A stretch of 24,000 nucleotides of DNA, from NCBI GenBank assembly GCA_965655705.1, contig CBFHHM010000008.1, forward strand, positions 77,175-101,174. The letters are read 5' to 3'. The first letter of the stretch is position 1; the number at the start of each line of letters is the position of its first letter. Under the pieces are notes generated by a model. The model saw nothing but the letters and a program-made list of their open reading frames with translations, was not told where the DNA came from and did no database searches. Of this stretch, positions 6,808 through 24,000 are shown one piece after another. Source of the stretch: Candidatus Pelagisphaera sp. Lineage in GTDB: Bacteria; Verrucomicrobiota; Verrucomicrobiia; Opitutales; Opitutaceae. The position numbers were made by a program, and so were the translations under genes.

Positions 6808-6808
6808 T

Positions 6809-10208: not shown

Positions 10209-10428
10209 AGCTCGCCAGCTCTTTAGGCGTAACAGGAGTCATTGGAGATCAATTAATTGCGATGGGCGCATGCGGCCCTGGGCGACAATCGTTTCACTGC
10301 GATATGGGCCCTTCATCGGGCAAACCGTTCTTTGGTTCGGGCTTCCCATGGAAATTCCAATTCGAACTAAAAAAAGATTGGGTTTGGCAGGGTTTTCGCC
10401 CAATACGGAGGAAGCTGATGACTCGACT

Positions 10429-10938
10429 ATGATCTCCTTGATTCGCGATAATTGCGATTTCCTTCAGCAAGGAATCGACCTATTGGAACGGCATGGCCCG
10501 GAATCCTACGTCTATGCCGATCTCCAATGCTTTGGGTCGAGCATCGGTTCGCACATGCGCCATGTGTTGGACCACTACAATTCGCTAGTGGACGGGATAG
10601 CATCGGGAATCGTCGATTACGATGATCGGGAACGTCGAACCGCAGTGGAAACGAAGTTGGCGGAAGGGCTCGCTCTGGCCCGCGAGACGATCGATCGCTT
10701 GGGTTGTCTAGATGCGAATTTGGAGCGTAAGGTAGAAGTCATCGTTTCAGCGAATACCCGCGGTCGCGAGGCGGCTTCGCATTCGACGGTAGGTCGAGAA
10801 CTGCAATTTCTCGCCTCCCATACGGTGCATCATTACGCGTTGATAGCGATTGCGAGCCGGATGCAAGGTATTCATCCGGAAGATACTTTTGGAATTGCTC
10901 CTTCGACCTTGAAGTATTTGCAGATAGCGGACTGCTAA
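10429..10938 (+). CDS. DinB/YfiT-like four-helix-bundle protein (putative metal-dependent enzyme)
   Basis: His-rich helices typical of the DinB superfamily: GSHMRHVLDHYNSL near the N-terminus and LASHTVHHYALIA near the C-terminus. The ~170-aa size from ATG 10429 fits the family. The track ORF starts at 10270, but its first ~53 residues have no recognisable character, so the start is uncertain. Confidence 0.6.
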   Translation: MISLIRDNCDFLQQGIDLLERHGPESYVYADLQCFGSSIGSHMRHVLDHYNSLVDGIASGIVDYDDRERRTAVETKLAEGLALARETIDRLGCLDANLERKVEVIVSANTRGREAASHSTVGRELQFLASHTVHHYALIAIASRMQGIHPEDTFGIAPSTLKYLQIADC

Positions 10939-11669
10939 TGTGCACCGTTAGCTGGAGCGTCCGCGAGCAAGGGTATCGATTGTTTTTCAATCGCGACGAG
11001 CGAAAAACCAGACCGCGAGCGGAACGGCCGAAGGTATTGGTTCGCAATGGGTGCCGCTTGATAGCTCCGATCGATCCCGAGGGCGGCGGCAGTTGGATCG
11101 CTGTGAGCGAGAGGGGTGGAACTGCCTTTCTACTGAACAACTACGGAGCGACAGGATCGAGCTCTCGAGAAGCGACTTATCGCACCCGAGGCGAGATTCC
11201 ATTGAGGCTCGCATGTAGCGCCAATGGAGAGGAGCGCATGTCCTTGATTCGCGAATGCAGCAGCGCGGAATACCGCCCGTTTTTCATTGGCTACCTAAGC
11301 AAGGGGGAGTCGGCGATGTTTTTTTCCTGGGATGGTCGAAGCCTGGAAAGCATCGATTTGGATATGCCGTTTTATACTACTTCGTCATTCAAATCGCGAG
11401 AAATCGAGCCCTATCGCTCCAAACGATATCGGGATTACGCATTCAGCGAAGGGTCGAAATGGGCCTGGGAAAGCGGAATCGACTATCACTGCGATATCGC
11501 GCACGAGGATCCCGCCTTCAATCCGGCAATGTCGCGTTCGGATGCGGAGACTCATTGCATTTCGATCGTAACGGTTACGGATGGCGGTATCCGGTTCGAA
11601 TACAGGGAACGCGTTGGCGGTCGTTTTTCCGATGCGATCGAAACGGGATTCGAATCGACGGGCGACTAG
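10938..11669 (+). CDS. NRDE/TANGO2-family protein (Cys-N-terminal, Ntn-hydrolase-like)
   Basis: Starts with MC and carries the family-naming NRDE motif (LFFNRDERK). It also has GGGSWIAVSERGGTAFLLNNY and RTRGEIP, which parallel the eukaryotic TANGO2 segments GGTWLG...AALTN and RGRGEL. The start overlaps the upstream stop (TAATG, 10936-10940). Confidence 0.78.
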   Translation: MCTVSWSVREQGYRLFFNRDERKTRPRAERPKVLVRNGCRLIAPIDPEGGGSWIAVSERGGTAFLLNNYGATGSSSREATYRTRGEIPLRLACSANGEERMSLIRECSSAEYRPFFIGYLSKGESAMFFSWDGRSLESIDLDMPFYTTSSFKSREIEPYRSKRYRDYAFSEGSKWAWESGIDYHCDIAHEDPAFNPAMSRSDAETHCISIVTVTDGGIRFEYRERVGGRFSDAIETGFESTGD

Positions 11670-11675
11670 CAGCTG

Positions 11676-14246
11676 ATGAAACGGACTTTGCTTCTGATCT
11701 ATGGAGGGTTGTTGATTGTCTCGGCAAGTTGGAAGGAGTGGAATCCGCGTTTGCCCCCCGCTCTAGAGGGTCAGGCTAGCGTCGCAGTGACGATTGCATC
11801 GGACGAAGAAGCGATCGATATACGGTATTGGGATACGAAAAGGGAAGGGCTGGACGAGCGACCGGCGCTCGTTCTCCTGCATGGGAGTCCCATGGCCTCG
11901 GAATATTTCGATCCGCTTTTAGAGAGCTTGGGAGAGGACTTTCGGTTGATCGTCCCAGATCTCCCGGGGTTCGGCCGGTCTCGAAAACGTATCGACGACT
12001 ATTCTATCGACTCGCACGCTCGGTATTTGCGTTCCTTCCTGGACGCCGCGCAGGTAGAAGAGTATCACTTGCTTGGCTACAGCATGGGAGGGGGCGTTGC
12101 GTTGGCGTATACGCGGTTCGAAGCGGTGGACCCACGTTCTTTGACGCTTGTTTCATCGATTGGCCTGCAGGAATTCGAGCTGCTTGGCGACTACACTCTC
12201 AATCATGCGCTGCACGCGGCTCAGCTATTCGTCTTCTGGTCCTTGGAGTGGCTAACGCCGCACTTCGGATTATTGGATGGGGCAATACTGAACTACCGCT
12301 ATGCTCGGAACTTCTACGATACGGATCAGCGTCCGTTGAGGGACGCCTTGCTCGATTGGGGCGAGCCTGCCCTGATCGTCCACGGCGAACGCGATGGATT
12401 GGTTCCCTTTCAAGCAGCCCAAGCTCATCTCAAGGCGATGCCGCATGCCCAGTTCAAGGCCTACAAAGAAGCGGGGCATTTGCTTTCCTATCGGGAATCC
12501 GATCGGGTTGCGGAAGATATCAAACGATTCGTCTGGAGCGTGGAGACTGGAGAGGCGGCGCGGAGAAGTCCGATGCAAGAGGTGGCCCCGGAAGCCTTGC
12601 CGCGAATGCAGCGAAGTCACATGTTTATGGGAGCGCTCTTAGGCGTGGCCACGTTCGTAAGCGAGGACTTGGCCTGTATTGGGGGTGGTCTCTTGGCGAC
12701 TAAAGGAGCGACTCCGCTGTGGGTAGCCGTGACTGGATGCCTCTTGGGGATTTTTATCGGCGATTTCGCGATTTATCTTATGGGTCGTTTCCTGGGGAGG
12801 TCCGTGTTGGGGCTTCCTGTATTGAATCGAATTCTGTCGCCTGCTCGAGTGGATCGCTGCGCTCGATGGCTGGATGAGAAGGGACTCGTCTGGATTGTAT
12901 CTACGCGTTTCATACCAGGTACGCGGGCTCCGACTTACTTCGTTGCCGGCATGGTCAAGGCGGGACCGATGCGATTCGCCATGGCGTTGCTCGCTGGAGC
13001 GATTCTATGGACTCCTTTGCTTGTGGGGCTTTCCTATTGGTTGGGAGGCGCGTTTCTGAGCTTTTTCGAGGAAAGGGAGGGTTGGGCGTTGCTGGGATTG
13101 CTAGTGGTCTCGCTGGGATTGCTGACGCTCGCCCGGTTGTCGGTCGGCCTATTGAGCTGGCAGGGTAGAAGGCTCTTGTATTCCCGTTTCAAACGGTTGG
13201 CGAGATGGGAGTATTGGCCGATGTGGGTCTTTTATCCGCCCATTCTAATGTACGTATTTTGGCAAATGGTGAAACGGCGTTCAGCGACCTCGTTGACATG
13301 CGTCAATCCATGTATGCCAGCGAGCGGCTTGGTTTATGAATCGAAAAGCGAGATCCTGGCCCATTTAGAGCGTTTCGAAGCGCCAATCGGCCGATTCGCA
13401 TTGATCCCTTTGCGATGGGAAAGGGAGCGAAAGGGCGCGGCGCTGGGCTCATTCATGAAGCGAAACAATTTGAAGTTCCCGGTCGTTCTCAAGCCGGATG
13501 CGGGACAGAGAGGGCAGGGAGTTGACATTGTCCATTCGGAGCAGGAGGCCATGGCGTTTTTCGATTCGCAGCTGGAATCGACGGTTGCCCAAGAATATCT
13601 CCCCGGTAACGAGTACGGCATTTTCTACTACCGACTTCCAGGCCATGGAAAAGGCGAGATCCTTTCCGTTACGGACAAGAGACTTATCGAGGTCGTCGGA
13701 GATGGAGCGTCGCGTTTGGAACGCTTGATTCTCGCTGATGAGCGAGCGGTCGGAATGGCTCGTTTCTTTCTGGAAGCCCACCGGGATTCGTTGGATAGGA
13801 TTCTGGGGGATGGCGAACGCTATCGGCTTACCCAGCTGGGTACTCATTGCCGTGGGGCGCTCTTTCTGGATGGGGGTCACTTGCGGACACCAGAGTTGGA
13901 AGCCGCTGTGGACGAGATGAGTCGAGACGTGGAGGGATTCTATTTCGGACGCTACGATATTCGGGCGCCTAGCGAAGCGGATCTGAAGGCGGGTCGCAAT
14001 CTAAGGATTATCGAACTCAATGGATTGACCTCCGAGTCAACTCACATGTATGACCCGAAACATAGTCTTTTCTACGCTTACAAGGCCTTGTTTCGGCAAT
14101 TCGAAATCGCCTTTGAAATAGCCGACATAAATCGCGCCGCAGGGATAGAGGCCGACCGTTTCAGGTCATTGCTTCGACTGGCGCATTGCTATTGGAAAGG
14201 AATGCCGTCTGGACGAGATGGAAGCGAATCGCCAGCGCAGCGTTAG
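11676..14246 (+). CDS. Tri-domain membrane protein: alpha/beta-hydrolase + DedA/VTT (SNARE-associated) membrane domain + ATP-grasp ligase
   Basis: N-terminal anchor MKRTLLLIYGGLLIVSA. The hydrolase (~11840-12550) has LVLLHGSPMAS, nucleophile elbow GYSMGG, HGERDGLVP and EAGHLL. The DedA/VTT part (~12590-13120) has FVSEDLACIGGGLLA, GDFAIYLMGRFLGR and STRFIPGTRAPTYFVAGM, followed by further TM helices. The ATP-grasp (~13360-14200) has FPVVLKPDAGQRGQGV, EYLPGNEYGIFYY and FGRYDIRAPS...IIELNGLTSESTHMYDP. Confidence 0.8.
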   Translation: MKRTLLLIYGGLLIVSASWKEWNPRLPPALEGQASVAVTIASDEEAIDIRYWDTKREGLDERPALVLLHGSPMASEYFDPLLESLGEDFRLIVPDLPGFGRSRKRIDDYSIDSHARYLRSFLDAAQVEEYHLLGYSMGGGVALAYTRFEAVDPRSLTLVSSIGLQEFELLGDYTLNHALHAAQLFVFWSLEWLTPHFGLLDGAILNYRYARNFYDTDQRPLRDALLDWGEPALIVHGERDGLVPFQAAQAHLKAMPHAQFKAYKEAGHLLSYRESDRVAEDIKRFVWSVETGEAARRSPMQEVAPEALPRMQRSHMFMGALLGVATFVSEDLACIGGGLLATKGATPLWVAVTGCLLGIFIGDFAIYLMGRFLGRSVLGLPVLNRILSPARVDRCARWLDEKGLVWIVSTRFIPGTRAPTYFVAGMVKAGPMRFAMALLAGAILWTPLLVGLSYWLGGAFLSFFEEREGWALLGLLVVSLGLLTLARLSVGLLSWQGRRLLYSRFKRLARWEYWPMWVFYPPILMYVFWQMVKRRSATSLTCVNPCMPASGLVYESKSEILAHLERFEAPIGRFALIPLRWERERKGAALGSFMKRNNLKFPVVLKPDAGQRGQGVDIVHSEQEAMAFFDSQLESTVAQEYLPGNEYGIFYYRLPGHGKGEILSVTDKRLIEVVGDGASRLERLILADERAVGMARFFLEAHRDSLDRILGDGERYRLTQLGTHCRGALFLDGGHLRTPELEAAVDEMSRDVEGFYFGRYDIRAPSEADLKAGRNLRIIELNGLTSESTHMYDPKHSLFYAYKALFRQFEIAFEIADINRAAGIEADRFRSLLRLAHCYWKGMPSGRDGSESPAQR

Positions 14247-15016
14247 ATACTGGAGTCTTCGGCAATGGGGGCTCGTTCCGCGGTACTGCCTTTGATGCCT
14301 CGCTTTATGAATTGAACGACTTCATCGTCTTCCTTCAGGCGAATGCTTTGATTGCTGCCCGTATCTTCGCCGACGTAGTCCGCAACCGAGGCGGCCATAA
14401 TAGGCAAGTATTCGCGCAGGTCGTCGTTTTCGTCGTAGTTGCGTACGCGTACGCTCCAGATTTCCTGAGCGGGAATGTCGCTTGAGATGGAATCGAGCAT
14501 ATTCTCCTTAGCGGTCAATTCCATGTACTTTTCGTTCACGACCACAGAAACAAGACGTTCCTCGTAGCCTACCAATTCGCGGCTTCTACGTCCGGGAACC
14601 CTCACGGTGTAAGTAATGATTCGACCCGTTTTCGGGTCTCGCTGCTGGACCGTTTGGATCCGGTCCGGCTCTTGGATAGTTGCGAATACCGGTTCTTCGA
14701 CTACTTTGAATTCCCGTCGAGGCGGTTCCATGCCGTAGTCGACCTCGATTACCATGTCGGCCTCGGTGACCTCGATCGCCTCGTACATGCCCTTGCTTGA
14801 CAGGGCCGTTTTGATATACTCGACGGTTTCCTTGTAGCGGAGATCGTTGACGTCCTGCTCGGGATCGCGTGGCACGATCACGTAGGTTTCCGCATCCTCA
14901 ATCGTTGGGTTCTTGATCGCGTCGACCTGCATTTCGTAGGTCGTATTGCATCCCGCTAGGAGAAATCCTAGCAATGCTCCAACGATCAAAGCAGGATGTT
15001 TTTGGCGGGAGGTCAT
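14243..15016 (-). CDS. Lipoprotein of unknown function
   Basis: Canonical lipoprotein signal MTSRQKHPALIVGALLGFLLAGC, with lipobox LAGC. The mature part is acidic and soluble, with no motif I recognise confidently; a loose DUF4136-like flavour is not asserted. Its 3' end overlaps the convergent 856-aa gene by 4 nt. Confidence 0.7.
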   Translation of the reverse strand: MTSRQKHPALIVGALLGFLLAGCNTTYEMQVDAIKNPTIEDAETYVIVPRDPEQDVNDLRYKETVEYIKTALSSKGMYEAIEVTEADMVIEVDYGMEPPRREFKVVEEPVFATIQEPDRIQTVQQRDPKTGRIITYTVRVPGRRSRELVGYEERLVSVVVNEKYMELTAKENMLDSISSDIPAQEIWSVRVRNYDENDDLREYLPIMAASVADYVGEDTGSNQSIRLKEDDEVVQFIKRGIKGSTAERAPIAEDSSI

Positions 15017-15045
15017 GAGTAAGTTTTGAACAAAAGAGATTTCGG

Positions 15046-15645
15046 TCAGGGAGCGGTGCCGTCACTGGCGTCGATATTGCCTTCCGAACCTTCGAGTTCG
15101 GCGAGCTCCTTTTCCAGTCGTTCGATTTCAGCGAGGGCGTCCTTTTCACGCTCCTCGGCTTCATCCAAGGCCTTTTTCCGATCTATCGCCGCTTGTCGCT
15201 TGGCTTGAAGGACTTTGAGCCGCGCTTCGGCGGTCTCCGCCCGCCCGGACATCTCGTCCAATTCCTCGTTTGAAATGCGAAACCCCTCGGCTATGTCCAA
15301 TTCCTCCTGCAGGTCCGCCTTCTCCTTGTCGATCGCTCGCTTTTGCATGGCGATGGCTTGATTGTAGGCCCGTTGCTGAGCGAGCGTATCCTGACGTTTC
15401 CGCTCCTTGCCTTCCTGGATGGCGCCAATGGTAGCGCCGACAATCGCTCCCGCTGCCCCTGCGGCGGCAATGCCACCCGCATCTTGGCCCGTTACGGCTC
15501 CGCCTATGGCGCCCACGGCAGCGCCCGCCCCGGCTCCTTTAACCGTTTTGGAAGCGGCTGGCCCCGCGCATCCCCAATGAAAGGCGAGCAAGGCAAGGCC
15601 GACTAGCGTGGCAGCTGTCTTTCCGAGTATTTTCGACCGATTCAT
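15046..15645 (-). CDS. Secreted/lipoprotein with glycine-zipper segment and long coiled coil
   Basis: Signal-like N-terminus MNRSKILGKTAATLVGLALLAFHWGC; the Cys could be lipidated, but the lipobox is atypical. A Gly/Ala zipper follows (GAGAGAAVGAIGGAVTGQDAGGIAAAGAAGAIVGATIGAI), then ~110 aa of charged heptad-like helix (EKADLQEELD...LAEIERLEKELAELE). It lies 29 nt upstream of the 14243-15016 gene, so they are probably co-transcribed. Confidence 0.7.
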   Translation of the reverse strand: MNRSKILGKTAATLVGLALLAFHWGCAGPAASKTVKGAGAGAAVGAIGGAVTGQDAGGIAAAGAAGAIVGATIGAIQEGKERKRQDTLAQQRAYNQAIAMQKRAIDKEKADLQEELDIAEGFRISNEELDEMSGRAETAEARLKVLQAKRQAAIDRKKALDEAEEREKDALAEIERLEKELAELEGSEGNIDASDGTAP

Positions 15646-15877: not shown

Positions 15878-16726
15878 ATGAAAAACAAAGGGTTTTATTC
15901 CCGCGACTTCATGGTCCAGTTCCTGGGCCTCTTCGTTTCCATTATCGTCGTCACTGCCGTCTACAAAGGCTATATTTGGCCCACGGCCGACGAGGTGAAG
16001 ATCACCAACGAAATACGAGCCAGCCAAAACCCGGATGGAAGCCACGTTCCGGAGAAGTCGATCGCCTTGCTTCTAGAAAATGCAGAGCAAATGGCCTGTC
16101 TCATTCTTATGATGTGGGCGACGATCATAATCGTGTTCAAATTTCTCAAGCTGAGTGGGGAGCAGGCGATGGCGGACCACGCCTTTCTCAAGACGGCTCG
16201 CGGCGAACGAATCATTCCGGAAGACGCGTTAGCCCACTACAAAGAGGTGGAGAGTCAATTGAGACGCGCCCCGCGGTTGCGCGGGAAGATTCTCCCAGAC
16301 GTTATTCTGGCGGCCCTTCATCGATTCGATGCGACGCGTTCGATCCAGGATGCGGCCCACGCGGTAAGCGAGCGAACGGAAATGGCCTATGAACAGCTCG
16401 AGTCGGACCTGTCTCTGGTCCGCTACATCGCTTGGGCGATTCCGTCCGTAGGATTTATCGGCACCGTGCGCGGCATTAGCGAGGCCCTCGGGCAAGCGGA
16501 TATGGCGATTCAAGGCGACATCAGTGGGGTTACTTCCAGCCTAGGCTTGGCCTTTAATTCGACCTTCATCGCCTTGCTGCTTAGCATCGGGCTCATGTTG
16601 CTGGTGCATCTCTTGCAGTCGCGTCAGGAATCGCTGGTGATCGAGCTTGAGGATCTAGCGACCAAGAAGGTGATCGGCTTAATGAAAACGCCGACCAATG
16701 AAGAATCCAGTATCAGCTTTAGCTAG
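15878..16726 (+). CDS. MotA/TolQ/ExbB-family ion-channel (stator A-type) subunit
   Basis: The C-terminal half carries the family signature: YIAWAIPSVGFIGTVRGISEALGQA, then SSLGLAFNSTFIALLLSIGLMLLVHLL (compare A-P-x-x-G-L-L-G-T-V-x-G and the Thr-containing last TM of ExbB/TolQ). There are two N-terminal TM helices (FMVQFLGLFVSIIVVTAVY and MACLILMMWATIIIVF) and a ~95-aa charged loop before TM3. No SD precedes ATG 15878. Confidence 0.85.
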   Translation: MKNKGFYSRDFMVQFLGLFVSIIVVTAVYKGYIWPTADEVKITNEIRASQNPDGSHVPEKSIALLLENAEQMACLILMMWATIIIVFKFLKLSGEQAMADHAFLKTARGERIIPEDALAHYKEVESQLRRAPRLRGKILPDVILAALHRFDATRSIQDAAHAVSERTEMAYEQLESDLSLVRYIAWAIPSVGFIGTVRGISEALGQADMAIQGDISGVTSSLGLAFNSTFIALLLSIGLMLLVHLLQSRQESLVIELEDLATKKVIGLMKTPTNEESSISFS

Positions 16727-16738: not shown

Positions 16739-18202
16739 ATGTCTACTTTGGGAATTGAATTGAGCGATGTGGGCGTCAACGCGGTCTTGATCGACTCGAG
16801 CGGCTCCTCGCAAATCGTTTCGTTGAGCGGGGATGAGGAAGCGATGCCCGCTTGCGCCTACGCTCGGGCGGGCGAACTGTGGTTTGGGCCGGAAGCTCAG
16901 GAAATGGCTTTCGTATACCCACGTCGCACCTGCTCGGAGTTTATTGACGATCTGTCATTCCAGTCCACCAATTTGGATGGCCACTACCGGAAGATAATGT
17001 ATTCGCAATTGGCGTACAGGTTTTTCCAAGAGCTGCTCTCGAAGGTGGAGGAGGAAGCGGGGGCTGTGAGGCAGTGCGTCATTGCGGTTCCGGGCCATTA
17101 CCTCGAGAGGAACGAGCGTTCGGAAGAGCGACTGGGATTGCTGCTGGGTATTCTCGGCGACCTGGGGGTTCCCGTAGCCGGTATCGTCGACATGGCAGCG
17201 GCGGCTCTTTACAGCGAAGGGCTTTGGAATGTGCCGGAGGGAGAACGCGTGTTCCATGTCGATTTGCTCGCCCATGCGACTCATATTTCGGTGTTCCACA
17301 AACGGGGAGGGTTGGAACGCGTCAATTTCACTCGGCTGCCGCAGCACGGATTCAGTAAAATGCTGGAGCGGTTTACGGCGTCGATGTCGAATCGCTTCCT
17401 GGCCGAAACGTCTTTCGACATCACTGAAGATCGGCAAATCGAGCGGGCCTTCCATGCTCAGACGCGTGAGATGCTCTTCAACCTCGGCAAGGTCAACGAA
17501 GCGAACTTGGAAGTTTCGACGCGCGAGAAGTCGCGGCAGATGATGATTTCCAAGGAAATGGCCACGCTAGAGTTGGAGCCGCAAGTAAAGCTGGTGACCC
17601 AGATGATTCTCAGAGCGGTGAACGACTTCGCCAATAGCAGCGACGAGATTCAAATCGCCCTTTCAAGTCGCGCCGCTATGATTCAGGGACTGAAGGAATC
17701 GATCGTATCCCAGGGAATGGGGGAGGTCATGGAATTGCCTCCGGAGAGCGGCGCATTTGGAGTTGCCAATTACGGCAAGGACTGGGAGGTCGTAGATGAC
17801 ATGGGAGAGGCTCGGGTCGAGGTAGGCATTGCTACGGCGGGAATGCTTCAAGCGCCTGAGAAGCCCTCGGCAGTGGCCTCGCTGCGTTTGATTCGAGAAG
17901 GTCGATCGCTCAATCCGACGCACATCGTATGCGATGGCTTGGCCTATCGGCTTTCGGGCGATTCCTTTTTGGTAGGAATCGGCGAAAGCGATCGATTCGA
18001 TTTGGTCGCGGATAGAGAGAGTTCCGGGGAGCCCGTAGGTCTATTTCGATTGAATTTGAGCGAAGATCGGTGGAATATCGAAGCGATGGAAGGAGCGAAG
18101 TTGGGGGAAATCGGAGAGACGGGTTTGAAAGCGGGCGATGCGGTGGAGCTTCGCTTGGTCTCGACCCGCAAGCGACTCGCGCTCGTCCACTGCATCGAAT
18201 AG
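16739..18202 (+). CDS. Hsp70/actin-fold protein with degenerate nucleotide-binding motifs and an FHA-like C-terminal domain
   Basis: By eye it is colinear with the DnaK NBD. Matches (DnaK in brackets): LGIELSDVGVNAVLID (IGIDLGTTNS), MPACAYARAGELWFGPEAQ (TPSIIAY..GETLVGQPAK), CVIAVPGHY (AVITVPAYF), GVPVAGIVDMAAAALY (GLEVKRIINEPTAAALAY), VFHVDLLAHATHISVF (VYDLGGGTFDISI), IQIALSSRAAMIQGL (VILVGGQTRMPMV) and PPESGAFGVANYG (NPDEAVAIGAAVQG). There is no signal peptide. The last ~90 aa (~17920-18199) form a beta-rich region with an FHA-like pattern (FLVGIGESDRFDLV...LKAGDAVELR). Confidence 0.72.
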   Translation: MSTLGIELSDVGVNAVLIDSSGSSQIVSLSGDEEAMPACAYARAGELWFGPEAQEMAFVYPRRTCSEFIDDLSFQSTNLDGHYRKIMYSQLAYRFFQELLSKVEEEAGAVRQCVIAVPGHYLERNERSEERLGLLLGILGDLGVPVAGIVDMAAAALYSEGLWNVPEGERVFHVDLLAHATHISVFHKRGGLERVNFTRLPQHGFSKMLERFTASMSNRFLAETSFDITEDRQIERAFHAQTREMLFNLGKVNEANLEVSTREKSRQMMISKEMATLELEPQVKLVTQMILRAVNDFANSSDEIQIALSSRAAMIQGLKESIVSQGMGEVMELPPESGAFGVANYGKDWEVVDDMGEARVEVGIATAGMLQAPEKPSAVASLRLIREGRSLNPTHIVCDGLAYRLSGDSFLVGIGESDRFDLVADRESSGEPVGLFRLNLSEDRWNIEAMEGAKLGEIGETGLKAGDAVELRLVSTRKRLALVHCIE

Positions 18203-18214: not shown

Positions 18215-19282
18215 ATGAAACGGAAAAAGCGGGATACGGAAATTTTCAGTCTGTCCTTTTTGGACTGCATTTGCTGCGGCTTTGGAGCCGTGCTGCTTTT
18301 GTTCGTGCTCACGGTGGGCAAGAAGTCGGATACGCTGATCGATATCAAAGCGAAGATCGAGCAGGTCATTGGCCAGATGGAGAACGACCTTTCGGATAAG
18401 GACAAGGAGCTGAAAAGCCTACAGCGCTCCTTGACGACCTTGAGAAATACCAACCGCACCTCGGAGGAAGAAATCGTAGTCAAAAAGAAGATGCAGACCG
18501 AGCTCGAAGACGAGTTCGCCCTTTTGCTGGCTCAACTTTCCTCGATGGAGGAGGACTTGGGTAAGCTGTTGGACGACAAGGAAAACATGCCTATGCAAGA
18601 GGAGGAGCCGCCTATTCCGATCGTTAATCCAGTGCGGCGGCAGTACCTGACAGGGTTCGATATCCAGGGAGATAATGTGCTTTTCCTGATCGAGGCTTCG
18701 GGCGGTATGATGGATGACACAACCGAGAAAGCGTCGGCTCGCCTGAGCGATTCCGACGAGGATAAGCGCAATGCGCCGAAATGGCTTCAAGTGAAGAAAG
18801 GCATGCGCTGGCTGATCGCCAACTTGAAGCCGACTTCGCGGTACAAAATAATGCTTTTCAACGAAGAGATTACGACGATCGATACACGCTACGGAACGGA
18901 TTGGATCGATCCGTCCGATCGAGACACCACCAAGGATATCCTCGACCAGTTGGATGATGTGGTGCCGGAGAAAGGGGCCAACCTGGAGAAGGCCTTCTCC
19001 ATGGCGAGCGATCTGCCGGTGGAACCGGACCGCATTGTATTGATTGTAGACGGCTTGCCGACTTTGGCCGATAGCTACTCCACGGGAAGCAACGTCACGG
19101 ACGACCACGACCGCATCAACATGTTTCGCGTGGCCAAGAAAGCGCTGATCGTGCAGGCGCCGGTCAATATTCTGCTTTATCCAATGAAGATGGACCCGGG
19201 CGCTGCCGTTCACTACTGGCGCTTGGCGGACGATCAGGGTGGGGCGATGGTTTGTCCTTCCAGATCCTGGCCGAACACATGA
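18215..19282 (+). CDS. ExbD/TolR-like TM anchor + coiled coil + vWA domain protein, paralogue A (degenerate MIDAS)
   Basis: Basic tip MKRKKRDTE, then TM IFSLSFLDCICCGFGAVLLLFVL with Asp17 (18263-18265). A charged heptad-like helix spans ~18326-18590. The vWA pattern is NVLFLIEASGGMMD (18692-18706, where DxSxS would be), YKIMLFNEE, GANLEKAFSMA, RIVLIVDGLPT, VNILLYP and YWRLADDQGGAMV. Confidence 0.8.
   Translation: MKRKKRDTEIFSLSFLDCICCGFGAVLLLFVLTVGKKSDTLIDIKAKIEQVIGQMENDLSDKDKELKSLQRSLTTLRNTNRTSEEEIVVKKKMQTELEDEFALLLAQLSSMEEDLGKLLDDKENMPMQEEEPPIPIVNPVRRQYLTGFDIQGDNVLFLIEASGGMMDDTTEKASARLSDSDEDKRNAPKWLQVKKGMRWLIANLKPTSRYKIMLFNEEITTIDTRYGTDWIDPSDRDTTKDILDQLDDVVPEKGANLEKAFSMASDLPVEPDRIVLIVDGLPTLADSYSTGSNVTDDHDRINMFRVAKKALIVQAPVNILLYPMKMDPGAAVHYWRLADDQGGAMVCPSRSWPNT
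18245..18325 (+). repeat. Paralogous 81-nt segment (TM anchor of vWA paralogue A)
   Basis: By hand alignment to 19306-19386, 61 of 81 nt and 22 of 27 codons (amino acids) are identical. The rest of the two genes is far more diverged. Confidence 0.8.
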
Positions 19283-20394
19283 GACGCAAGCGTTCCACTC
19301 AAGTTTTCAGCTTGTCCTTTCTGGACGTGATTTGCTGCGGATTCGGAGCGATCATTCTGCTCTTCGTCATCACCATGGGCAAGAAGACCAAGGAGATCAC
19401 GAATTTGCGGATAGCCTTGGAGCGTATCATCCAACAGCGCATGCTGCAGCTCAACGAATATGAAATTCGTACGGAAGAGTTGGCCCTGCTTATTCAGCTC
19501 GAAAGGGACAAGGATAACGAAAAGAAGATCGTGGAGGAGGATTTGGACGCGGTTATCGCGAAGCTCAAAGAGCAGATAAACGATAAGGAGTTCAGCAAAG
19601 ACAAGTTCGTCACCGATATCGAACAGCTGGAAAAGGAGTTGGCGGTGATGCAAACCGATCCTGAGATCGAACAAAAGGTTCTCGAGGTAACCCCGGTCGG
19701 GGTGCCGGTCGAGAGCAATCACATCGCATTCGTAATCGATACGTCAGGCAGTATGCGCGATCCCAATACGCGTTTGGTTTGGGGATACGTAATACAGAAG
19801 TTCGAGGAAACCTTGGATTCCTATCCGGAGGTCAAGGGCATTCAATTGCTCGATGCCAACGGGCGTTTCATTATCGGAAGAGGCATGGGCAGTCGGTGGA
19901 TGCCGGACAATCGCGAGACCCGCGAGTACATGGTGCGAACCTTGCGACTGTATCCCTACGATAGCGAAAGCAATCCTGTACCGGGCATCGCCCAGGCGAT
20001 CCGGCGCTTGGCGGACCCCGGCGACGAGGAAATGGAAATGGGAATCTACGTATTCGGCGATGAGTTTACCGGTCGATCCGAGCCCGTTTTGAATACACTC
20101 GATAAACTCAATCAAGACAATGAGGGCGAGCGCATGGCCCGCATCAATGCGATCGGCTTTCCGAATCTGATTCGCAATACGCTTTCCTTGAGCCAGTCTG
20201 GCTTGAAGTTCGCCAATCTGATGCGCGAGCTGACCTACGAACACGATGGAGCCTTCGTCGCCTTGGAGCGCGAATCGCTGCGCGCTCGGTCCCGCGAAAT
20301 CGAACAACGCTATCCCGCGCCTATTCCCCGGAGAGACCCTCTGGAGCCCTCGATTATCTACGGTCCTCGAGGGGGCGGCATATACGGGCCCTAA
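19279..20394 (+). CDS. ExbD/TolR-like TM anchor + coiled coil + vWA domain protein, paralogue B (intact MIDAS)
   Basis: I place the start at ATG 19279 (ATGA overlap with the upstream stop) because MRRKRSTQVFSLSFLDVICCGFGAIILLFVITMGKK then aligns residue-for-residue with paralogue A; the track's 19252 start adds 9 unaligned residues. The TM Asp16 is at 19324-19326 and the coiled coil spans ~19390-19684. The vWA pattern is HIAFVIDTSGSMRD (DTSGS 19738-19752), SESNPVPGIAQAIRRL, GIYVFGDEFTG, RINAIGFP and LTYEHDGAFVAL. Confidence 0.85.
   Translation: MRRKRSTQVFSLSFLDVICCGFGAIILLFVITMGKKTKEITNLRIALERIIQQRMLQLNEYEIRTEELALLIQLERDKDNEKKIVEEDLDAVIAKLKEQINDKEFSKDKFVTDIEQLEKELAVMQTDPEIEQKVLEVTPVGVPVESNHIAFVIDTSGSMRDPNTRLVWGYVIQKFEETLDSYPEVKGIQLLDANGRFIIGRGMGSRWMPDNRETREYMVRTLRLYPYDSESNPVPGIAQAIRRLADPGDEEMEMGIYVFGDEFTGRSEPVLNTLDKLNQDNEGERMARINAIGFPNLIRNTLSLSQSGLKFANLMRELTYEHDGAFVALERESLRARSREIEQRYPAPIPRRDPLEPSIIYGPRGGGIYGP
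19306..19386 (+). repeat. Paralogous 81-nt segment (TM anchor of vWA paralogue B)
   Basis: Partner of 18245-18325; see that entry. Confidence 0.8.
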
Positions 20395-20567: not shown

Positions 20568-21812
20568 CTATCGTTCGGTGAAGGCGTTCATCTTCGCTCG
20601 CATCAGAGGTTTCAATACATAGTCGAAGACGCTCTTCTTGCCAGTCTTGATGTCGACTTGAGCGACCATTCCGGGAAGGATCTCGAGTTCTTGTTCACTG
20701 GTGCGCAAGGAGCGTTCGCCGGTGCGAACCAAGATGCGATAGTGGCTTTCGCCTTGGTCGTTCATGAACGTGTCGGCGCTGATGCGCTCTACTTCGCCCG
20801 ATAGCCCTCCATAGACGGAGTAGTCGTAGGCGGTCAACTTGACGGTTGCGTCTTGGCCGATTTTGACGAAGGCGATATCCTCCGGGGCGATGTCCGCCTC
20901 GACGAGAAGACTGTCGCCGGTGGGCACGATCTCGAAAAGAGGCGCTCCCGGCTGAAGGATGCCGCCGATCGTTTTGACGTGCAGCTTGTTCACGATTCCC
21001 GAAACGGGAGCTTTGATATCGGTCCGGGCGATCTTGTCTTCGTAGGCGAGCAGCGCTTGTTCCACTTGCTTTAGGCTCGTGCTGTATTCGTTTCGTTGCG
21101 ATACGACTTCGCTCAAATATTCAGAGGACTCCCGTTCCATTTGACCTTCCAAATCGTTGACCATGGCCTCTAGGCGGAGAAGCTCTACGCGGGACACCAC
21201 GCCGGATTCGGCGAGGGGGCGCGACATTTCCAACTCTTGCGTTTTCAGTTCAAGGCTTTTCCCAAGGTGACGTTGACTTGTCTCGATCTGTTCGCGGCGG
21301 GTGTGGAAGAGCAAGGATTCCGCCTCGATTAGATCGGGTCGTTGTTCAGCCAGGACAGCGGGAAAGACAATTTCCGAAGAAGCGCTCAACTCCGCTTCCA
21401 AACGAGAGATCTTTGCCATGAGGTCATTGCGCTCGGCCAGGTTTTCTCGATAGCTGGCTCGGAAAGTCGTGTCGTCGATTTTAGCCAGTCGGCGTCCCTG
21501 CTCTACTCGTTGTCCTTCGCGCACATCGATTCCGGATACGATGCCTCCTTCAAGGCTCTGGACGATTTGCAGACTGCCGGAAGGAATGATCTTGCCTTGC
21601 CCGCGGGTCAGTTCGCTGACCTGCGATTGGTAGGCCCAAAGCAAGCAGGCGACAACCAAGCCCATGATGCTTAGTAGAAGGATGTTCGCGTAGGGCATCT
21701 TCTCCTCGAGAAAGGCGACCTTGCAGTCCGCCACGAAGTCGAGGTCTTCGATTGCGATCGCTTCCCTTTGCGGCCCGGAGACATTTCGTTTGTCTGGCGA
21801 TTCTTGGCTCAT
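20568..21812 (-). CDS. HlyD-family type I secretion periplasmic adaptor (membrane fusion protein)
   Basis: N-terminal TM ILLLSIMGLVVACLLWAY, a long coiled-coil hairpin region, and a lipoyl/barrel region (IKAPVSGIV and FEIVPTGDSLLVEADIAPEDIAFVKIGQDATVKLTAYDY). The family-typical C-terminus is KTGKKSVFDYVLKPL. Its start overlaps the upstream ABC gene's stop by 1 nt (TGATG on the minus strand). Confidence 0.92.
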   Translation of the reverse strand: MSQESPDKRNVSGPQREAIAIEDLDFVADCKVAFLEEKMPYANILLLSIMGLVVACLLWAYQSQVSELTRGQGKIIPSGSLQIVQSLEGGIVSGIDVREGQRVEQGRRLAKIDDTTFRASYRENLAERNDLMAKISRLEAELSASSEIVFPAVLAEQRPDLIEAESLLFHTRREQIETSQRHLGKSLELKTQELEMSRPLAESGVVSRVELLRLEAMVNDLEGQMERESSEYLSEVVSQRNEYSTSLKQVEQALLAYEDKIARTDIKAPVSGIVNKLHVKTIGGILQPGAPLFEIVPTGDSLLVEADIAPEDIAFVKIGQDATVKLTAYDYSVYGGLSGEVERISADTFMNDQGESHYRILVRTGERSLRTSEQELEILPGMVAQVDIKTGKKSVFDYVLKPLMRAKMNAFTER

Positions 21813-23926
21813 CAGTTTCTTCCCGTTCCTCCGGATAGTTGGCGCATGACGTCAGTCTTCGGCCCGTCGGCAGCGATTTTGCCTTGGTCCACCACGATTA
21901 TTCGATCCGCAAGCTTCAGCATCGAAGGTTTGTGGGTAGAAAGGACCAAGGTACGATTACCTTCCTTCGAGTACCGCTCCATATTGGTGATGAAATCGCG
22001 TTCCGCATTGGCGTCCATGGCGCTGGTCGGTTCGTCCATGACGAGCAAGCTCGGCTTAATCAATAGGGCTCGAGCGATGTTAACGGCCTGTCGCTGGCCG
22101 CCAGAGAGCATCTCGCCCCGTTCCCCCACCTGCAAGTCGTAGCCCAAGGGGTGCTTGGAAACGAAGCGCTCGACGCCGGACAGGTTGGATGCCTCGATAA
22201 GCGCGGATTCTTCCATCCAAGGGGCTCCAATCAGGATGTTGGATTTCAAGGAGCCTTGAAAGAGGAGATTGTCCTGGCCGATGTATCCGATTTTACGGCG
22301 CAAGTCGGCCGGATCCATCTGCCGGATGTCGGTATCGTTGACCGTGATCATGCCGCCGGTCGACGGATAGAATCCGAGGATGAGTCGGAGGAGGGTGCTC
22401 TTGCCGGATCCGACGCGACCCAGTATGGCCACTCGTTCTCCGGGTTTGATGGAAAAGGAGGCGTTGATGATGGCGGGGGCGCTTTCCGGCGAGTAGGAAA
22501 AGGTGACATCGTTGAAGGCGATGCGCGGTTCGAAATCGGGCTTGTGTATGTAGTCCTGCCCCTCTTCGCGCTCCTGGGGAAGCTTGATCAAATCGTTGAG
22601 TCCGCTCAGCGATACCAGCGATCCTTGCAGACGGGACAGAAGCGCGGCGACTTGGCCAATTGGAGCCATAGCCCGACCCGTTAGTATGGTGCAGCCAATA
22701 AGGGCGCCCATGCTCATTTCTCCTTGCTGTATCCGAAATACGGAAACGACGATAATGATGACGGACACTATTTGCGTCGTAAATACGGTGAAATTCGAGG
22801 CCAGCGAGGAATAGCGTCGCGAGGTAACTTCGCTCTTAGCCATCTTGCCCAGAGAATCTTCCATTCTCTTTTGGAAGCTGCCGGATGCGGAGAGGCCGCG
22901 GATCGCCTCGAATCCGTTGATGGCTTCCACGAGTATGGCATGCTTCTGGGCGGATGCCCCATGGGCCTTTTCAGCGGCTCGTTTGAGCGGAACATGCATG
23001 AGCGCTCCGAGCGTGAGGATCATTGCGATGGCGGCGCAGGGAATGAAAGCAACCCAGCCCGCGATATAGCCCATGAAAACGATGAACAGGCAAACGAAGG
23101 GAAGATCGATGAGGGTGGTCAGGGACGCCGAGGTAAAGAACTCTCTCAGGCTTTCGTAGCCCTTGACTTGGTTGGCGAAGCTGCCTGACGAGCTGGGCTT
23201 GGCCTGCATCTTGATGCCCATGATGCGTTGGAAGATGAAGCTGGACATGAGCACGTCCGCATTCTTGCCCGCCTTGTCTATGAGCAGACCGCGAAGGGAC
23301 TTGAGAAGGAAATCGAACACGTAGACGATACAGACTCCGCTGGCCAGGACCCACAGGGTGTCGATAGCGTTGTTGGGGATGACTCTATCGTAGACGTTCA
23401 TCACGAAGAGCGAACCCGCGATGGCAAACAAGTTGATGAAGACCGCGGCCAGCATGACGTTGGCGTAGATCTTCTTGTACTTCCAAAGCGTACCCCAAAA
23501 CCAGTTTTTCGCATTGATGCTTTGCGAGCTCGATTCGGAGCGCGTATCGAAGTCGAACTCCGGCTTGACGAAGATCGCCATACCCGTGTAGTCGGCTTCG
23601 ATATCGGAGGTTGGAATTGTGGTCTCCCCGCTGCCGGACTCAGGGACGATAACGCGACATTGGTCGCCCTCGACGCGTTCGACGAGGATGAGGGCTCGAT
23701 TGTCTTCGAGTAAAAGAACGGCGGGCAGCGTGAGGTTGGATATCTTGGCGAGCGGGCGTTTGACGATACGGGAGGAGAATCCTGCGTTGGCCGCCGATCG
23801 AAGAAACAATTTGGGAGTGAGGCGATTGTCGACCAAGGGCATCCCCGCTACGAGCGCTTCCTTGGAAATCGAGCGGTGATGGATTTTGCCCAGCGTGAAG
23901 AGGCATTCGAGCAGGGCATCGTCCAC
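21812..23926 (-). CDS. Type I secretion ABC transporter (permease/ATPase) with N-terminal C39-like domain, LssB/LapB type
   Basis: The N-terminal segment DDALLECLFTLGKIHHRSISKEALVAGMPL resembles the LssB-family C39-like domain. It has a six-TM exporter core, Walker A GRVGSGKST, signature LSGGQRQ, Walker B LLVMDEPTSAMD and H-loop STHK. The track start is GTG 23926, but the same frame has no stop up to position 24000, so the true start may lie outside the window. Confidence 0.9.
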   Translation of the reverse strand: MDDALLECLFTLGKIHHRSISKEALVAGMPLVDNRLTPKLFLRSAANAGFSSRIVKRPLAKISNLTLPAVLLLEDNRALILVERVEGDQCRVIVPESGSGETTIPTSDIEADYTGMAIFVKPEFDFDTRSESSSQSINAKNWFWGTLWKYKKIYANVMLAAVFINLFAIAGSLFVMNVYDRVIPNNAIDTLWVLASGVCIVYVFDFLLKSLRGLLIDKAGKNADVLMSSFIFQRIMGIKMQAKPSSSGSFANQVKGYESLREFFTSASLTTLIDLPFVCLFIVFMGYIAGWVAFIPCAAIAMILTLGALMHVPLKRAAEKAHGASAQKHAILVEAINGFEAIRGLSASGSFQKRMEDSLGKMAKSEVTSRRYSSLASNFTVFTTQIVSVIIIVVSVFRIQQGEMSMGALIGCTILTGRAMAPIGQVAALLSRLQGSLVSLSGLNDLIKLPQEREEGQDYIHKPDFEPRIAFNDVTFSYSPESAPAIINASFSIKPGERVAILGRVGSGKSTLLRLILGFYPSTGGMITVNDTDIRQMDPADLRRKIGYIGQDNLLFQGSLKSNILIGAPWMEESALIEASNLSGVERFVSKHPLGYDLQVGERGEMLSGGQRQAVNIARALLIKPSLLVMDEPTSAMDANAERDFITNMERYSKEGNRTLVLSTHKPSMLKLADRIIVVDQGKIAADGPKTDVMRQLSGGTGRN

Positions 23927-24000
23927 GCGATCAATCGACTCCTCGGGGGCCGATTCGGCGCGGTTTTCTGCGAGAACGTCGCCGAGGCGATTTTCGGCAG

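What the first reader, a model, noticed from the sequence alone, without database searches (positions are those of the whole stretch)
16739..18202. Hsp70-fold protein with all three nucleotide-binding motifs replaced (likely pseudo-ATPase) plus an FHA-like tail, embedded in the stator-like operon
Seen: the N-terminal ~375 aa track the DnaK nucleotide-binding domain segment by segment. However, phosphate-1 DLGTTNS is ELSDVGV, phosphate-2 DLGGGTFD is DLLAHATH, and the adenosine motif LVGGQTR is IALSSRA. No substrate-binding-domain-like region follows. Instead there is a ~90-aa beta-rich tail whose spacing resembles an FHA domain (xxVGIGESxxFDLV ... LKAGDAVEL) but lacks the usual Arg/Ser/His/Asn phosphothreonine-binding residues. 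Established: those three motifs bind ATP and Mg in Hsp70/actin-fold ATPases. Inference: the protein is a non-catalytic or highly atypical Hsp70-fold scaffold. It is cytoplasmic (no signal peptide) and may dock on the ~95-aa cytoplasmic loop of the MotA-like subunit.
Basis: partly seen in the sequence, partly recalled or inferred. Interest (0 to 1): 0.6.

Follow-up and report, generated by a model that had tools for sequence, protein, structure and literature searches.

The report
Hsp70-like pseudo-ATPase with degenerate FHA tail
This gene encodes a cytoplasmic protein with the body of an Hsp70 chaperone's ATPase domain but none of its ATP-binding loops, fused to a phosphopeptide-reader (FHA) domain that has lost its reading residues; it belongs to a widespread, unnamed family that accompanies a recently predicted proton-driven envelope motor whose job is unknown.

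Summary
ORF 16739-18202 (487 aa) models confidently (pLDDT 85). Its first ~350 residues match Hsp70/DnaK nucleotide-binding domains (Foldseek E 2e-21; TM 0.82 to the M. tuberculosis DnaK NBD).

The same genome's own DnaK keeps them.

The tail is homologous to Pfam-positive FHA domains of distant relatives (hhalign 97%, E 9e-11). It lacks their Ser/His signature.

New here:
- The protein belongs to a large family, annotated only as "hypothetical" or "FHA domain-containing" (880 clusters at 50% identity; 398 species genomes matched one peptide pattern).
- The replaced loops are themselves conserved family-wide (E7, D10, H173, D175, H179, S309, R311). This looks like a remodelled pocket, not decay.
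- The gene sits between a MotA/TolQ-like gene and two Asp-TM/coiled-coil/vWA genes in at least seven phyla.
- Most lineages add a Ser/Thr kinase and a PEGA/FGE protein. The window's branch lacks both the kinase domain and the FHA Ser/His signature.
- A sister lineage has the motor core with no Hsp70-FHA gene at all.

Most likely it is a non-ATPase accessory adaptor or regulator of the motor. Docking on the MotA-like loop is untested. This scan has already noted the same operon in at least 26 other genomes.

The parts
16739..18202 (+). Whole gene: 487-aa Hsp70-NBD-like plus degenerate-FHA protein (P0001)
   Evidence: ORF and translation; 45 close homologues; AF2 model with pLDDT 85
16739..17788 (+). 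Hsp70 nucleotide-binding-domain-like body (residues 1 to ~350)
   Evidence: Foldseek against PDB: Hsp70/DnaK, E 2e-21, TM 0.82 to 4rtf. Family profile against PDB Hsp70 sequences, E 2e-11. hhalign to the genome's own DnaK, E 7e-5 over 303 columns.
16751..16777 (+). Phosphate-1 equivalent, GIELSDVGV (residues 5-13). E7 replaces the DnaK Asp, and the GTT residues are replaced by SDV.
   Evidence: In the family, E7 is present in 114/126 sequences, D10 in 124/126 and G12 in 111/126.
17252..17287 (+). Phosphate-2 equivalent, FHVDLLAHATHI (residues 172-183). D175 is kept, and GGGT is replaced by L-A-H-A.
   Evidence: In the family, H173 is present in 91/126 sequences, D175 in 120/126 and H179 in 113/126.
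17651..17686 (+). Adenosine-motif equivalent, QIALSSRAAMIQ (residues 305-316). The GG pair is replaced by S310-R311.
   Evidence: In the family, position 309 is Ser or Thr in 115/126 sequences and R311 is present in 114/126.
17789..17875 (+). Linker with the conserved RVE.GI strand and a low-confidence loop (residues 368-377)
   Evidence: Invariant columns R359, E361, G363 and I364; pLDDT below 50 for residues 368-377
17876..18199 (+). Degenerate FHA beta-sandwich tail (residues 380-487), lacking the Gly-Arg, Ser and His signature
   Evidence: hhalign against Pfam-positive FHA tails: 97%, E 8.8e-11. Tail-only Foldseek: top 9 hits are FHA domains, E ~0.1. Residue comparison.
15878..16726 (+). 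MotA/TolQ/ExbB-like channel subunit, immediately upstream (P0047)
   Evidence: Pfam PF01618, E 3.6e-14. Adjacent to the Hsp70-like gene in 75/80 type-A loci and 23/23 type-B loci.
18215..19282 (+). Asp-bearing TM helix plus coiled coil plus vWA protein 1. The MIDAS-like motif is degenerate (LIEASGGM).
   Evidence: Translation; paralogy with the next gene; 'TPH-vWA' class described in PMC12204202
19252..20394 (+). Asp-bearing TM helix plus coiled coil plus vWA protein 2. The DxSGS MIDAS-like motif is intact. The true start is probably ATG 19279.
   Evidence: Translation; homologue N-termini begin MK/RR..FSLSFLD
14243..15645 (-). Divergent pair of lipoprotein-like genes (Gly-zipper, 199 aa; DUF4136-like, 257 aa) that travels with the operon in this branch of the family
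   Evidence: Weak Pfam hits. Synteny in all 7 close Verrucomicrobial loci. Present in 23/23 and 22/23 metagenomic type-B loci.

Best explanation
The gene encodes a cytoplasmic accessory subunit of a MotA/TolQ-like motor. The motor's usual TolR/ExbD/MotB partner is replaced by two Asp-TM/coiled-coil/vWA proteins.

Shown:
- The body is homologous to the Hsp70 nucleotide-binding domain.
- The glycine-rich phosphate and adenosine loops that hold ATP in Hsp70/actin-fold enzymes are gone from the whole family.
- They are replaced by a different, conserved set of polar residues (E7, D10, H173, D175, H179, S309, R311).
- The C-terminal domain is an FHA domain.
- In most lineages the operon also encodes a Ser/Thr kinase and a PEGA/FGE protein, and the tail keeps the FHA Ser/His signature.
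- In the window's branch the kinase domain is absent and the signature is gone.
- In a sister lineage the motor core exists without this gene.

Inferred:
- The protein does not work as an ATP-driven chaperone.
- It acts as an adaptor or regulator (clutch, brake or assembly factor). Its remodelled cleft and its FHA sandwich serve as protein-binding surfaces on the cytoplasmic face of the motor.
- Ancestrally this binding was under phosphothreonine control. In this Verrucomicrobial branch it is constitutive and phospho-independent.
For: - Fold and homology.
- Loss of the loops across 126 family representatives, with alternative conserved residues.
- The genome's own DnaK keeps the canonical loops.
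- FHA homology of the tail.
- Gene order in type-A loci: MotA-like upstream in 75/80 and paired vWA downstream in 77/80, from Desulfobacterota, Gammaproteobacteria, Acidobacteriota, Planctomycetota, Nitrospinota and Myxococcota.
- Gene order in type-B loci: 23/23 metagenomic loci with enough flank and 7/7 close Verrucomicrobial loci.
- Tight spacing: 12-nt gaps on both sides of the gene.
- Kinase and PEGA/FGE are each present in 43/44 type-A loci with at least 6.2 kb of upstream sequence.
- A well-supported clade of 33 representatives that includes the window lacks Ser/His in 32/33.
- Type-B loci give no match to the kinase domain; the matches fall on the TPR half of the kinase protein, in 13/23 loci.
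- The own genome has only generic kinase-domain and FGE-domain matches, all elsewhere in the genome, and none for the type-A 316-, 407- and 114-aa proteins.
- Five of five sister-family genomes have the motor core but no family member anywhere.
- Precedent: an FHA domain of GltG is predicted to bind the cytoplasmic face of the TolQ-like AglR pentamer (PMC11761067).
Against: - No biochemical or structural data exist, and nucleotide binding cannot be excluded from sequence alone.
- D175 (equivalent to DnaK D194) and an acidic residue at the D8 position are retained. The conserved His/Arg residues could still bind phosphates.
- Physical contact with the MotA-like loop or with any motor part is inferred only from gene order.
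- I found no type-A-specific conserved Thr in the vWA tails or the MotA-like loop that would identify the FHA ligand.
- Even in kinase-linked relatives, the canonical Gly-Arg arginine of FHA domains is present in only 13 of 126 representatives. Phospho-dependence of the ancestral tail is therefore itself uncertain.
- The tail-only Foldseek matches are statistically weak (E ~0.1).
Confidence: 0.6

Rival explanations
1. The remodelled cleft still binds a nucleotide or another phosphorylated or metal ligand (for example ATP in a non-canonical pose, a cyclic dinucleotide, polyphosphate or a divalent metal). The protein would then be a ligand-operated switch that turns the motor on or off, as NTPase switches do in other multi-component systems.
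For: - The residues that replace the loops are strongly conserved and are typical ligand or metal binders: E7, D10, H173, D175, H179, R311, plus R at position 180 and H at 310 in most of the family.
- The two acidic positions that coordinate metal in Hsp70 are kept.
- HSP70-like NTPase domains have been proposed as switches in other systems.
Against: - All three glycine-rich loops, whose backbone amides hold the phosphates and adenosine in the actin/Hsp70/sugar-kinase fold, are replaced by bulkier residues.
- The K70 segment is missing, and the E171 position is hydrophobic.
- No ligand is indicated by any tool used here.
Confidence: 0.25
2. It is an ATP-independent holdase or assembly chaperone for the membrane subunits (the MotA-like pentamer or the vWA proteins before insertion). 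It would not be a stable part of the working motor.
For: Hsp70 ancestry. It is dispensable in a sister lineage that still has the core. The interlobe groove of Hsp70 NBDs can bind hydrophobic linker peptides (established knowledge of Hsp70 allostery).
Against: There is no substrate-binding domain. There is no J-domain or GrpE partner in the operons examined. An FHA domain linked to a kinase fits signalling or docking better than folding.
Confidence: 0.08
3. It forms actin-like oligomers or filaments that anchor the pentamer in the cytoplasm. This would give a reaction arm so that the vWA axle can turn against a fixed stator.
For: It belongs to the actin/Hsp70 fold superfamily. A 5:2 motor whose axle is proposed to rotate (PMC12204202) needs its pentamer held still.
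Against: Foldseek places it with Hsp70 proper, not with MreB, FtsA, ParM or actin: the top 50 hits are all Hsp70 family. Polymerising actin-fold proteins normally need nucleotide. There is no evidence of self-association.
Confidence: 0.05
4. It is a decaying relic with no present function.
For: Catalytic and phosphopeptide-binding residues are lost. The gene is shortened or absent in other Verrucomicrobial lineages.
Against: The frame is intact. Identity is 52-84% across genera, with about 105 invariant columns. The substituted motifs themselves are conserved across phyla.
Confidence: 0.02

Closest known systems
Hsp70/DnaK nucleotide-binding domain (Pfam PF00012)
   Same: Same four-subdomain actin-like fold. 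Foldseek E 2e-21, TM up to 0.82. Profile-level sequence homology, E 2e-11. The Asp equivalent to DnaK D194 is retained.
   Different: It does not reach the Pfam threshold. The phosphate-1, phosphate-2 and adenosine loops are all replaced, the K70 segment is missing, and the E171 position is hydrophobic. There is no substrate-binding domain or lid; an FHA domain follows instead.
Atypical Hsp70s such as yeast Ssz1 (ribosome-associated complex) and Hsp110/Sse1
   Same: They are Hsp70-fold proteins used as non-hydrolysing scaffolds or partners rather than as cycling chaperones. Ssz1 chains are among the best full-length matches, with rmsd 9.5-10.8 A.
   Different: Those proteins still bind ATP through canonical loops and keep at least part of the substrate-binding domain (my own knowledge of the family). 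This protein has neither.
TolQ-like motors with paired 'transpore-helix vWA' proteins (Mol Biol Evol 2025, PMC12204202)
   Same: The window's operon has the predicted core: a tolQ-like gene, two heterologous vWA proteins with an Asp-bearing TM helix, and no tolR/exbD gene.
   Different: The text of that paper does not mention an Hsp70-like, FHA or kinase component. Here the Hsp70-FHA gene lies between the motor genes in most lineages examined.
GltG FHA domain of the Myxococcus Agl-Glt gliding machinery
   Same: It is an FHA domain predicted to bind the cytoplasmic face of a TolQ-like (AglR) pentamer, apparently without a phosphopeptide (PMC11761067).
   Different: GltG is a TonB/TolA-like membrane protein whose FHA domain lies next to its own TM helix. 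Here the FHA is on a soluble Hsp70-like protein. No homology beyond the FHA fold was tested.
Bacterial FHA phospho-readers paired with Hanks-type kinases (GarA/OdhI with PknB/PknG; Fha1 with PpkA in type VI secretion)
   Same: Type-A relatives combine a Pfam-positive FHA domain with an operon-encoded Ser/Thr kinase. GarA and OdhI are the best structural matches of the tail.
   Different: The window's tail lacks the Arg, Ser and His residues, and its operon has no kinase. Even the type-A tails mostly lack the Gly-Arg arginine.

Membership tests
Hsp70 (PF00012) | Actin-like two-lobed NBD fold with subdomains IA, IB, IIA and IIB | tested here: met
   Foldseek E 2e-21. NBD-only chains align at rmsd 3.3-4.3 A with TM 0.74-0.82.
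Hsp70 (PF00012) | Reaches the family's curated sequence threshold | tested here: not met
   No Pfam or NCBIfam hit even at E <= 10. A whole-genome PF00012 search finds DnaK and one other locus, but not this gene.
Hsp70 (PF00012) | Phosphate-1 loop D-x-G-T-T | tested here: not met
   The sequence here is IELSDVG. E7 aligns with D8, and D10 and V11 replace the two Thr.
Hsp70 (PF00012) | Phosphate-2 loop D-x-G-G-G-T | tested here: not met
   The sequence here is VDLLAHA. D175 is kept, and GGGT is replaced by L-A-H-A.
Hsp70 (PF00012) | Adenosine motif with G-G | tested here: not met
   The sequence here is ALSSRA. S310 and R311 align with the two Gly.
Hsp70 (PF00012) | C-terminal substrate-binding beta-sandwich and helical lid | tested here: not met
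   The tail alone matches FHA domains, not Hsp70 SBDs. There is no helical lid in the model.
Hsp70 (PF00012) | ATP binding and hydrolysis | not testable with these tools
   Needs the purified protein.
FHA domain (PF00498) | Homology to recognised FHA domains | tested here: met
   hhalign against tails that pass the Pfam FHA threshold: 97%, E 8.8e-11. The family profile hits the Rv0020c (TB39.8) FHA chain at E 1.4e-6.
FHA domain (PF00498) | Beta-sandwich fold of FHA type | tested here: inconclusive
   The top nine PDB matches are FHA domains with probability 0.47-0.95, but E ~0.1 and TM 0.34-0.54.
FHA domain (PF00498) | Conserved Gly-Arg, Ser and His (phosphothreonine contact residues) | tested here: not met
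   The Arg position is Ile, Ser is Pro and His is Leu.
FHA domain (PF00498) | Reaches the family's curated sequence threshold | tested here: not met
   No Pfam hit for the window protein.
Unnamed Hsp70-NBD/FHA family that accompanies MotA-like/vWA operons | Full-length profile match, the motif set E-x-x-D-x-G / H-x-D-x-x-x-H / S-x-R, and a position between the MotA-like and vWA genes | tested here: met
   880 representative clusters at E <= 1e-3. Motif conservation. Gene order.
TolQ-like / TPH-vWA predicted motors (PMC12204202) | A tolQ-like gene next to two heterologous vWA proteins with an Asp-bearing TM helix and no tolR/exbD/motB gene | tested here: met
   Pfam MotA_ExbB on the upstream gene, and no ExbD/TolR/MotB domain in the operon. 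FSLSFLD TM helices and paralogy.

The most novel reading that the evidence does not exclude
The remodelled Hsp70 cleft is a ligand- or phosphoprotein-sensing site. The protein would then be the cytoplasmic clutch or rotor partner of a proton-driven 5:2 motor. That would be the first Hsp70-fold protein to couple cytoplasmic signalling (ancestrally Ser/Thr phosphorylation) to rotation of a vWA-headed periplasmic axle.
Probability: 0.2. Interest if true: 0.85.

Novelty: new variant of a known kind. Interest (0 to 1): 0.6.

Why it matters
Ion-driven 5:2 motors (MotAB, ExbBD, TolQR, GldLM, ZorAB) are a very active field. For most of them the cytoplasmic partners are what give the motor its biological meaning, as FliG and YcgR do for flagella and the ZorA tail does for Zorya.

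The vWA-axle motors were predicted only in 2025, and their function is unknown. Three results here give concrete handles for experiments:
- Most of these motors carry a dedicated Hsp70-derived, FHA-tipped cytoplasmic protein.
- That protein is often paired with a Ser/Thr kinase.
- Natural variants exist with an FHA signature plus kinase, with a degenerate FHA and no kinase, and with no Hsp70-FHA gene at all.

The finding also adds a clear example of an Hsp70 nucleotide-binding domain recruited to a non-chaperone role, with its nucleotide site rebuilt rather than merely decayed.

Tried and rejected
- **Tail as an Hsp70 substrate-binding beta-domain.** Some full-length Foldseek alignments spanned 520-570 columns, but at rmsd 18-20 A. 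The tail alone matches FHA domains, not SBDs. Rejected.
- **vWA N-terminal cytoplasmic tails as the phosphothreonine ligand.** The window has DTEIF and STQVF. The tails are only about 10 residues long, and no Thr is conserved in kinase-linked relatives. Rejected.
- **A type-A-specific Thr in the MotA-like cytoplasmic loop.** The loop is highly conserved in both types, with no type-specific Thr visible. No conclusion.
- **Known anti-phage systems.** PADLOC gives nothing for the Hsp70-like, MotA-like or vWA proteins beyond weak ZorA-type MotA similarity and chance-level GajB/LmuB hits. The type-A kinase hits only generic kinase models.
- **Single-sequence search against PDB.** It gave only chance hits to copper nitrite reductase at E about 1.
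- **The search for related loci with the 50-sequence alignment.** It failed for lack of a conserved peptide stretch. A narrower alignment worked.
- **eLife 2020 conflict-systems paper (PMC7159879).** Its HSP70-containing systems are GTPase/tubulin-centred and are not this operon.
- **Model coordinates.** Their placement in the cleft rests on alignment to the DnaK motifs.
Full report
**The gene**

The frame 16739-18202 (+) encodes 487 residues.
- It starts 12 nt after the stop of a MotA/TolQ/ExbB-like gene and ends 12 nt before the next gene.
- It has 45 homologues at 52-84% identity over the full length. Where named, all come from Puniceicoccaceae/Pelagicoccus-type Verrucomicrobiota and are annotated 'hypothetical'.
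- An alignment of 24 of these has about 105 invariant columns. This is a real gene under selection.
- It has no signal peptide or TM helix. The only hydrophobic stretch (132-153) is a buried helix and strand of the domain core in the model.

**Hsp70 fold**

- Pfam and NCBIfam do not recognise the protein, even at permissive thresholds. A whole-genome search with the HSP70 model finds the genome's DnaK but not this gene.
- The AlphaFold2 model built on the clade alignment is confident (pLDDT 85.4, pTM 0.72).
- Foldseek against the PDB returns only Hsp70-family chains in the top 50. The best E is 2e-21. Isolated nucleotide-binding domains superpose at rmsd 3.3-4.3 A with TM 0.74-0.82.
- At sequence level the narrow clade profile gives a marginal DnaK hit (E 0.006).
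- A 50-sequence profile of the wider family hits Hsp70 chains down to E 2e-11. It also hits an FHA protein (Rv0020c) with its C-terminal part at E 1.4e-6.
- Homology to the Hsp70 NBD is therefore established by two independent routes.

**The three motifs**

A profile-profile alignment of the family with the genome's own DnaK (E 7e-5 over 303 columns) gives these correspondences. DnaK numbering is that of E. coli, from my own knowledge.

| This protein | DnaK position |
|---|---|
| E7 | D8 |
| D10-V11 | the two Thr of the phosphate-1 loop |
| D175 | D194 |
| L177-A178-H179-A180 | G196-G198 and T199 |
| S310-R311 | the G-G of the adenosine motif |
| gap | K70 segment |
| M152 | E171 |

The own DnaK carries the canonical strings.

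**A remodelled pocket, not decay**

An exhaustive profile search found 880 representative clusters (50% identity) at E <= 1e-3, and 446 at E <= 1e-10. They are typically 445-500 residues long.

In an alignment of 126 full-length representatives, the 'wrong' residues are the conserved ones:

| Residue | Sequences with it (of 126) |
|---|---|
| E7 | 114 |
| D10 | 124 |
| G12 | 111 |
| H173 | 91 |
| D175 | 120 |
| H179 | 113 |
| S/T309 | 115 |
| R311 | 114 |

Most sequences also have Arg at position 180 and His at 310. Glycines at the former GGG and GG positions are nearly absent.

The nucleotide site was therefore rebuilt early in the family and has been maintained since. This argues against simple decay. 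It leaves two possibilities open: a protein-binding surface, or a site for a different ligand.

**The tail**

- Distant family members pass the Pfam FHA threshold at their C-termini. Public records call them 'FHA domain-containing protein'.
- hhalign of the Verrucomicrobial tails against those tails gives 97% probability, E 8.8e-11, over 100 columns.
- A tail-only AF2 model (pLDDT 79.5) has FHA domains (GarA, OdhI, ArnA) as its nine best PDB matches. The statistics are weak (E ~0.1, TM about 0.34-0.54).
- The relatives' 'G-v-S-x-x-H-C' Ser and His are Pro and Leu in the window protein. The Gly-Arg position is Gly-Ile.
- The tail is thus an FHA domain by descent, without the phosphothreonine-contact residues. 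It is not an Hsp70 substrate-binding domain.
- Caveat: even in the kinase-linked relatives the Gly-Arg arginine is present in only 13 of 126 representatives.

**Genomic context across bacteria**

One peptide pattern recovered 398 loci among species-representative genomes. The 80 best are mostly Desulfobacterota. They also include Gammaproteobacteria, Acidobacteriota, Planctomycetota (including a Kuenenia), Nitrospinota and Myxococcota.

*Type A (kinase-linked):*
- The MotA-like gene lies immediately upstream in 75/80 loci, and the two vWA paralogues immediately downstream in 77/80.
- Among the 44 loci with at least 6.2 kb of upstream sequence, 43 also encode a Ser/Thr kinase with a TPR-containing C-terminal half. 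The same number, 43, encode a PEGA plus FGE-sulfatase-domain protein. A 407-aa protein of unknown family is present in 39.

*Type B (the window's branch):*
- A tree of the 126 representatives places the window in a clade of 33 (support 1.0). In 32 of these the FHA Ser/His pair is absent. The rest of the family mostly keeps it.
- In 23 metagenomic loci of this branch with good flanks, the MotA-like gene and both vWA genes are always present.
- A divergent Gly-zipper lipoprotein gene is present in 23/23, and a DUF4136-like lipoprotein gene in 22/23.
- The PEGA/FGE protein is present in 1/23. The kinase domain was not matched in these loci; the kinase-protein matches in the 13 loci below fall on its TPR half.
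- In 13/23, a convergent protein of about 570 aa matches only the TPR-containing C-terminal half of the type-A kinase protein.
- The seven close Verrucomicrobial loci show the same six-gene unit as the window.
- In the window's own genome the operon is single-copy. The kinase and FGE queries match only generic domains elsewhere in the genome, the 316-, 407- and 114-aa proteins have no match, and the TPR-half homologue lies on another contig.
- Absence of the kinase domain and absence of the phosphothreonine-contact residues therefore coincide.

*Type C (no Hsp70-FHA gene):*
- Within a sample of 401 genomes of the phylum, 31 carry a close vWA2 homologue.
- In five of five inspected genomes of a sister family, the locus is Gly-zipper lipoprotein, MotA-like, vWA1, vWA2. 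There is no room for an Hsp70-like gene. The broad family profile finds no member elsewhere in those genomes.
- In other Verrucomicrobial type-A loci the gene is shortened. One copy is 353 aa: an NBD with no FHA.
- The protein is therefore a frequent but dispensable companion of the motor core. That fits a regulatory or adaptor role better than an indispensable structural one.

**How it most likely works**

Shown:
- Hsp70-NBD ancestry.
- Loss of the canonical nucleotide loops, with a conserved replacement set.
- FHA ancestry of the tail.
- A fixed position between the pentamer and axle genes.
- Co-occurrence with a kinase where the FHA signature is kept.
- Absence of the gene from one lineage that has the core.

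Inferred:
- The protein is a cytoplasmic accessory of the MotA-like/vWA motor.
- It is not an ATP-driven chaperone.
- It uses the cleft and the FHA sandwich as binding surfaces.
- It was ancestrally controlled by Ser/Thr phosphorylation. In this branch it binds constitutively.

Docking on the MotA-like cytoplasmic loop is plausible, because the loop is highly conserved in both types. There is a predicted precedent in the GltG FHA domain on the AglR pentamer (PMC11761067). It was not testable here. I give this composite reading 0.6. The main rival is a ligand-operated switch that uses the rebuilt pocket (0.25).

**Comparison with the literature**

- The motor core matches the 'TPH-vWA next to tolQ-like' class predicted in Mol Biol Evol 2025 (PMC12204202). 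Its text does not mention an Hsp70-like, FHA or kinase partner.
- Full-text searches found no description of an Hsp70-NBD/FHA protein in such operons.
- PADLOC does not list it.
- Within this scan, the same operon type has been noted in at least 26 other genomes. Those notes agree on the nine-gene, kinase-linked form. I verified that form independently.

**Verdict**

The finding is real and the description accurate. The protein is a new variant of a known kind: an Hsp70-derived pseudo-ATPase fused to FHA. It is a common accessory of an uncharacterised proton-motor family, and its function and binding partner remain to be shown.

Noticed in passing
window 14243-15645 (-): The divergent Gly-zipper lipoprotein gene and the DUF4136-like lipoprotein gene are syntenic with the operon in all 7 close loci. 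They are present in 23/23 and 22/23 metagenomic loci of this branch. The Gly-zipper gene also accompanies the Hsp70-free three-gene core. They are likely envelope partners of the vWA heads.
   Followed up: partly
L183, L184, L186, L187, L190 (sister family of the same order): These operons consist of MotA-like plus two vWA genes, with a divergent Gly-zipper gene detected in four of the five (not in L183). They have no Hsp70-FHA gene, and no family member was found elsewhere in those genomes. The MotA-like ORFs there appear longer (299-345 aa against 282 aa).
   Followed up: partly
L188:6813-7874, L189:6996-7802, L185:6539-7795: In other Verrucomicrobial loci (L188 is kinase-linked; the upstream genes of L185 and L189 were not matched) the Hsp70-like gene is shortened. 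In L188 it is 353 aa: an NBD only, with no FHA domain.
   Followed up: partly
own genome, contig C22:30976-35250; L084:11679-15648: A ~570-aa protein is homologous only to the TPR-containing C-terminal half of the type-A kinase protein. It lies convergent downstream of the operon in 13/23 type-B loci. In the window's genome it sits on another contig, in a similar block: two further ORFs on the same strand and a divergent ~260-aa gene (Peptidase_M48 in L084).
   Followed up: partly
L084:3685-5475: One Puniceicoccaceae genome has a PP2C-phosphatase/Ser-Thr-kinase fusion gene directly beside the lipoprotein pair of the operon.
   Followed up: no
window 18215-20394: The two vWA paralogues differ at the MIDAS-like motif: LIEASGGM (degenerate) against VIDTSGSM (intact). 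The second gene probably starts at ATG 19279, overlapping the first gene's stop, rather than at TTG 19252.
   Followed up: partly
L003:4279-5400: The N-terminus of the PEGA/FGE-sulfatase protein in kinase-linked operons gives a weak FHA-like hit (Yop-YscD_cpl, E 0.022). This would be a second possible phospho-reader in those systems.
   Followed up: partly
window 10270-14246 and 20568-24000: The TANGO2-like and VTT/DedA-fusion genes upstream (plus a small unannotated gene before them, DinB-like in the window) recur next to the operon in several related genomes (L083, L099, L101; L085 has TANGO2 only). The HlyD/ABC type I secretion pair downstream recurs in L085, L101 and L102. This synteny may be only phylogenetic inertia.
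   Followed up: no
window 1-10208: The first 10 kb is a standard division/cell-wall cluster: LysM protein, FtsW, MurG, a MurC-MurB fusion, Ddl, FtsQ, FtsA and FtsZ.
   Followed up: no
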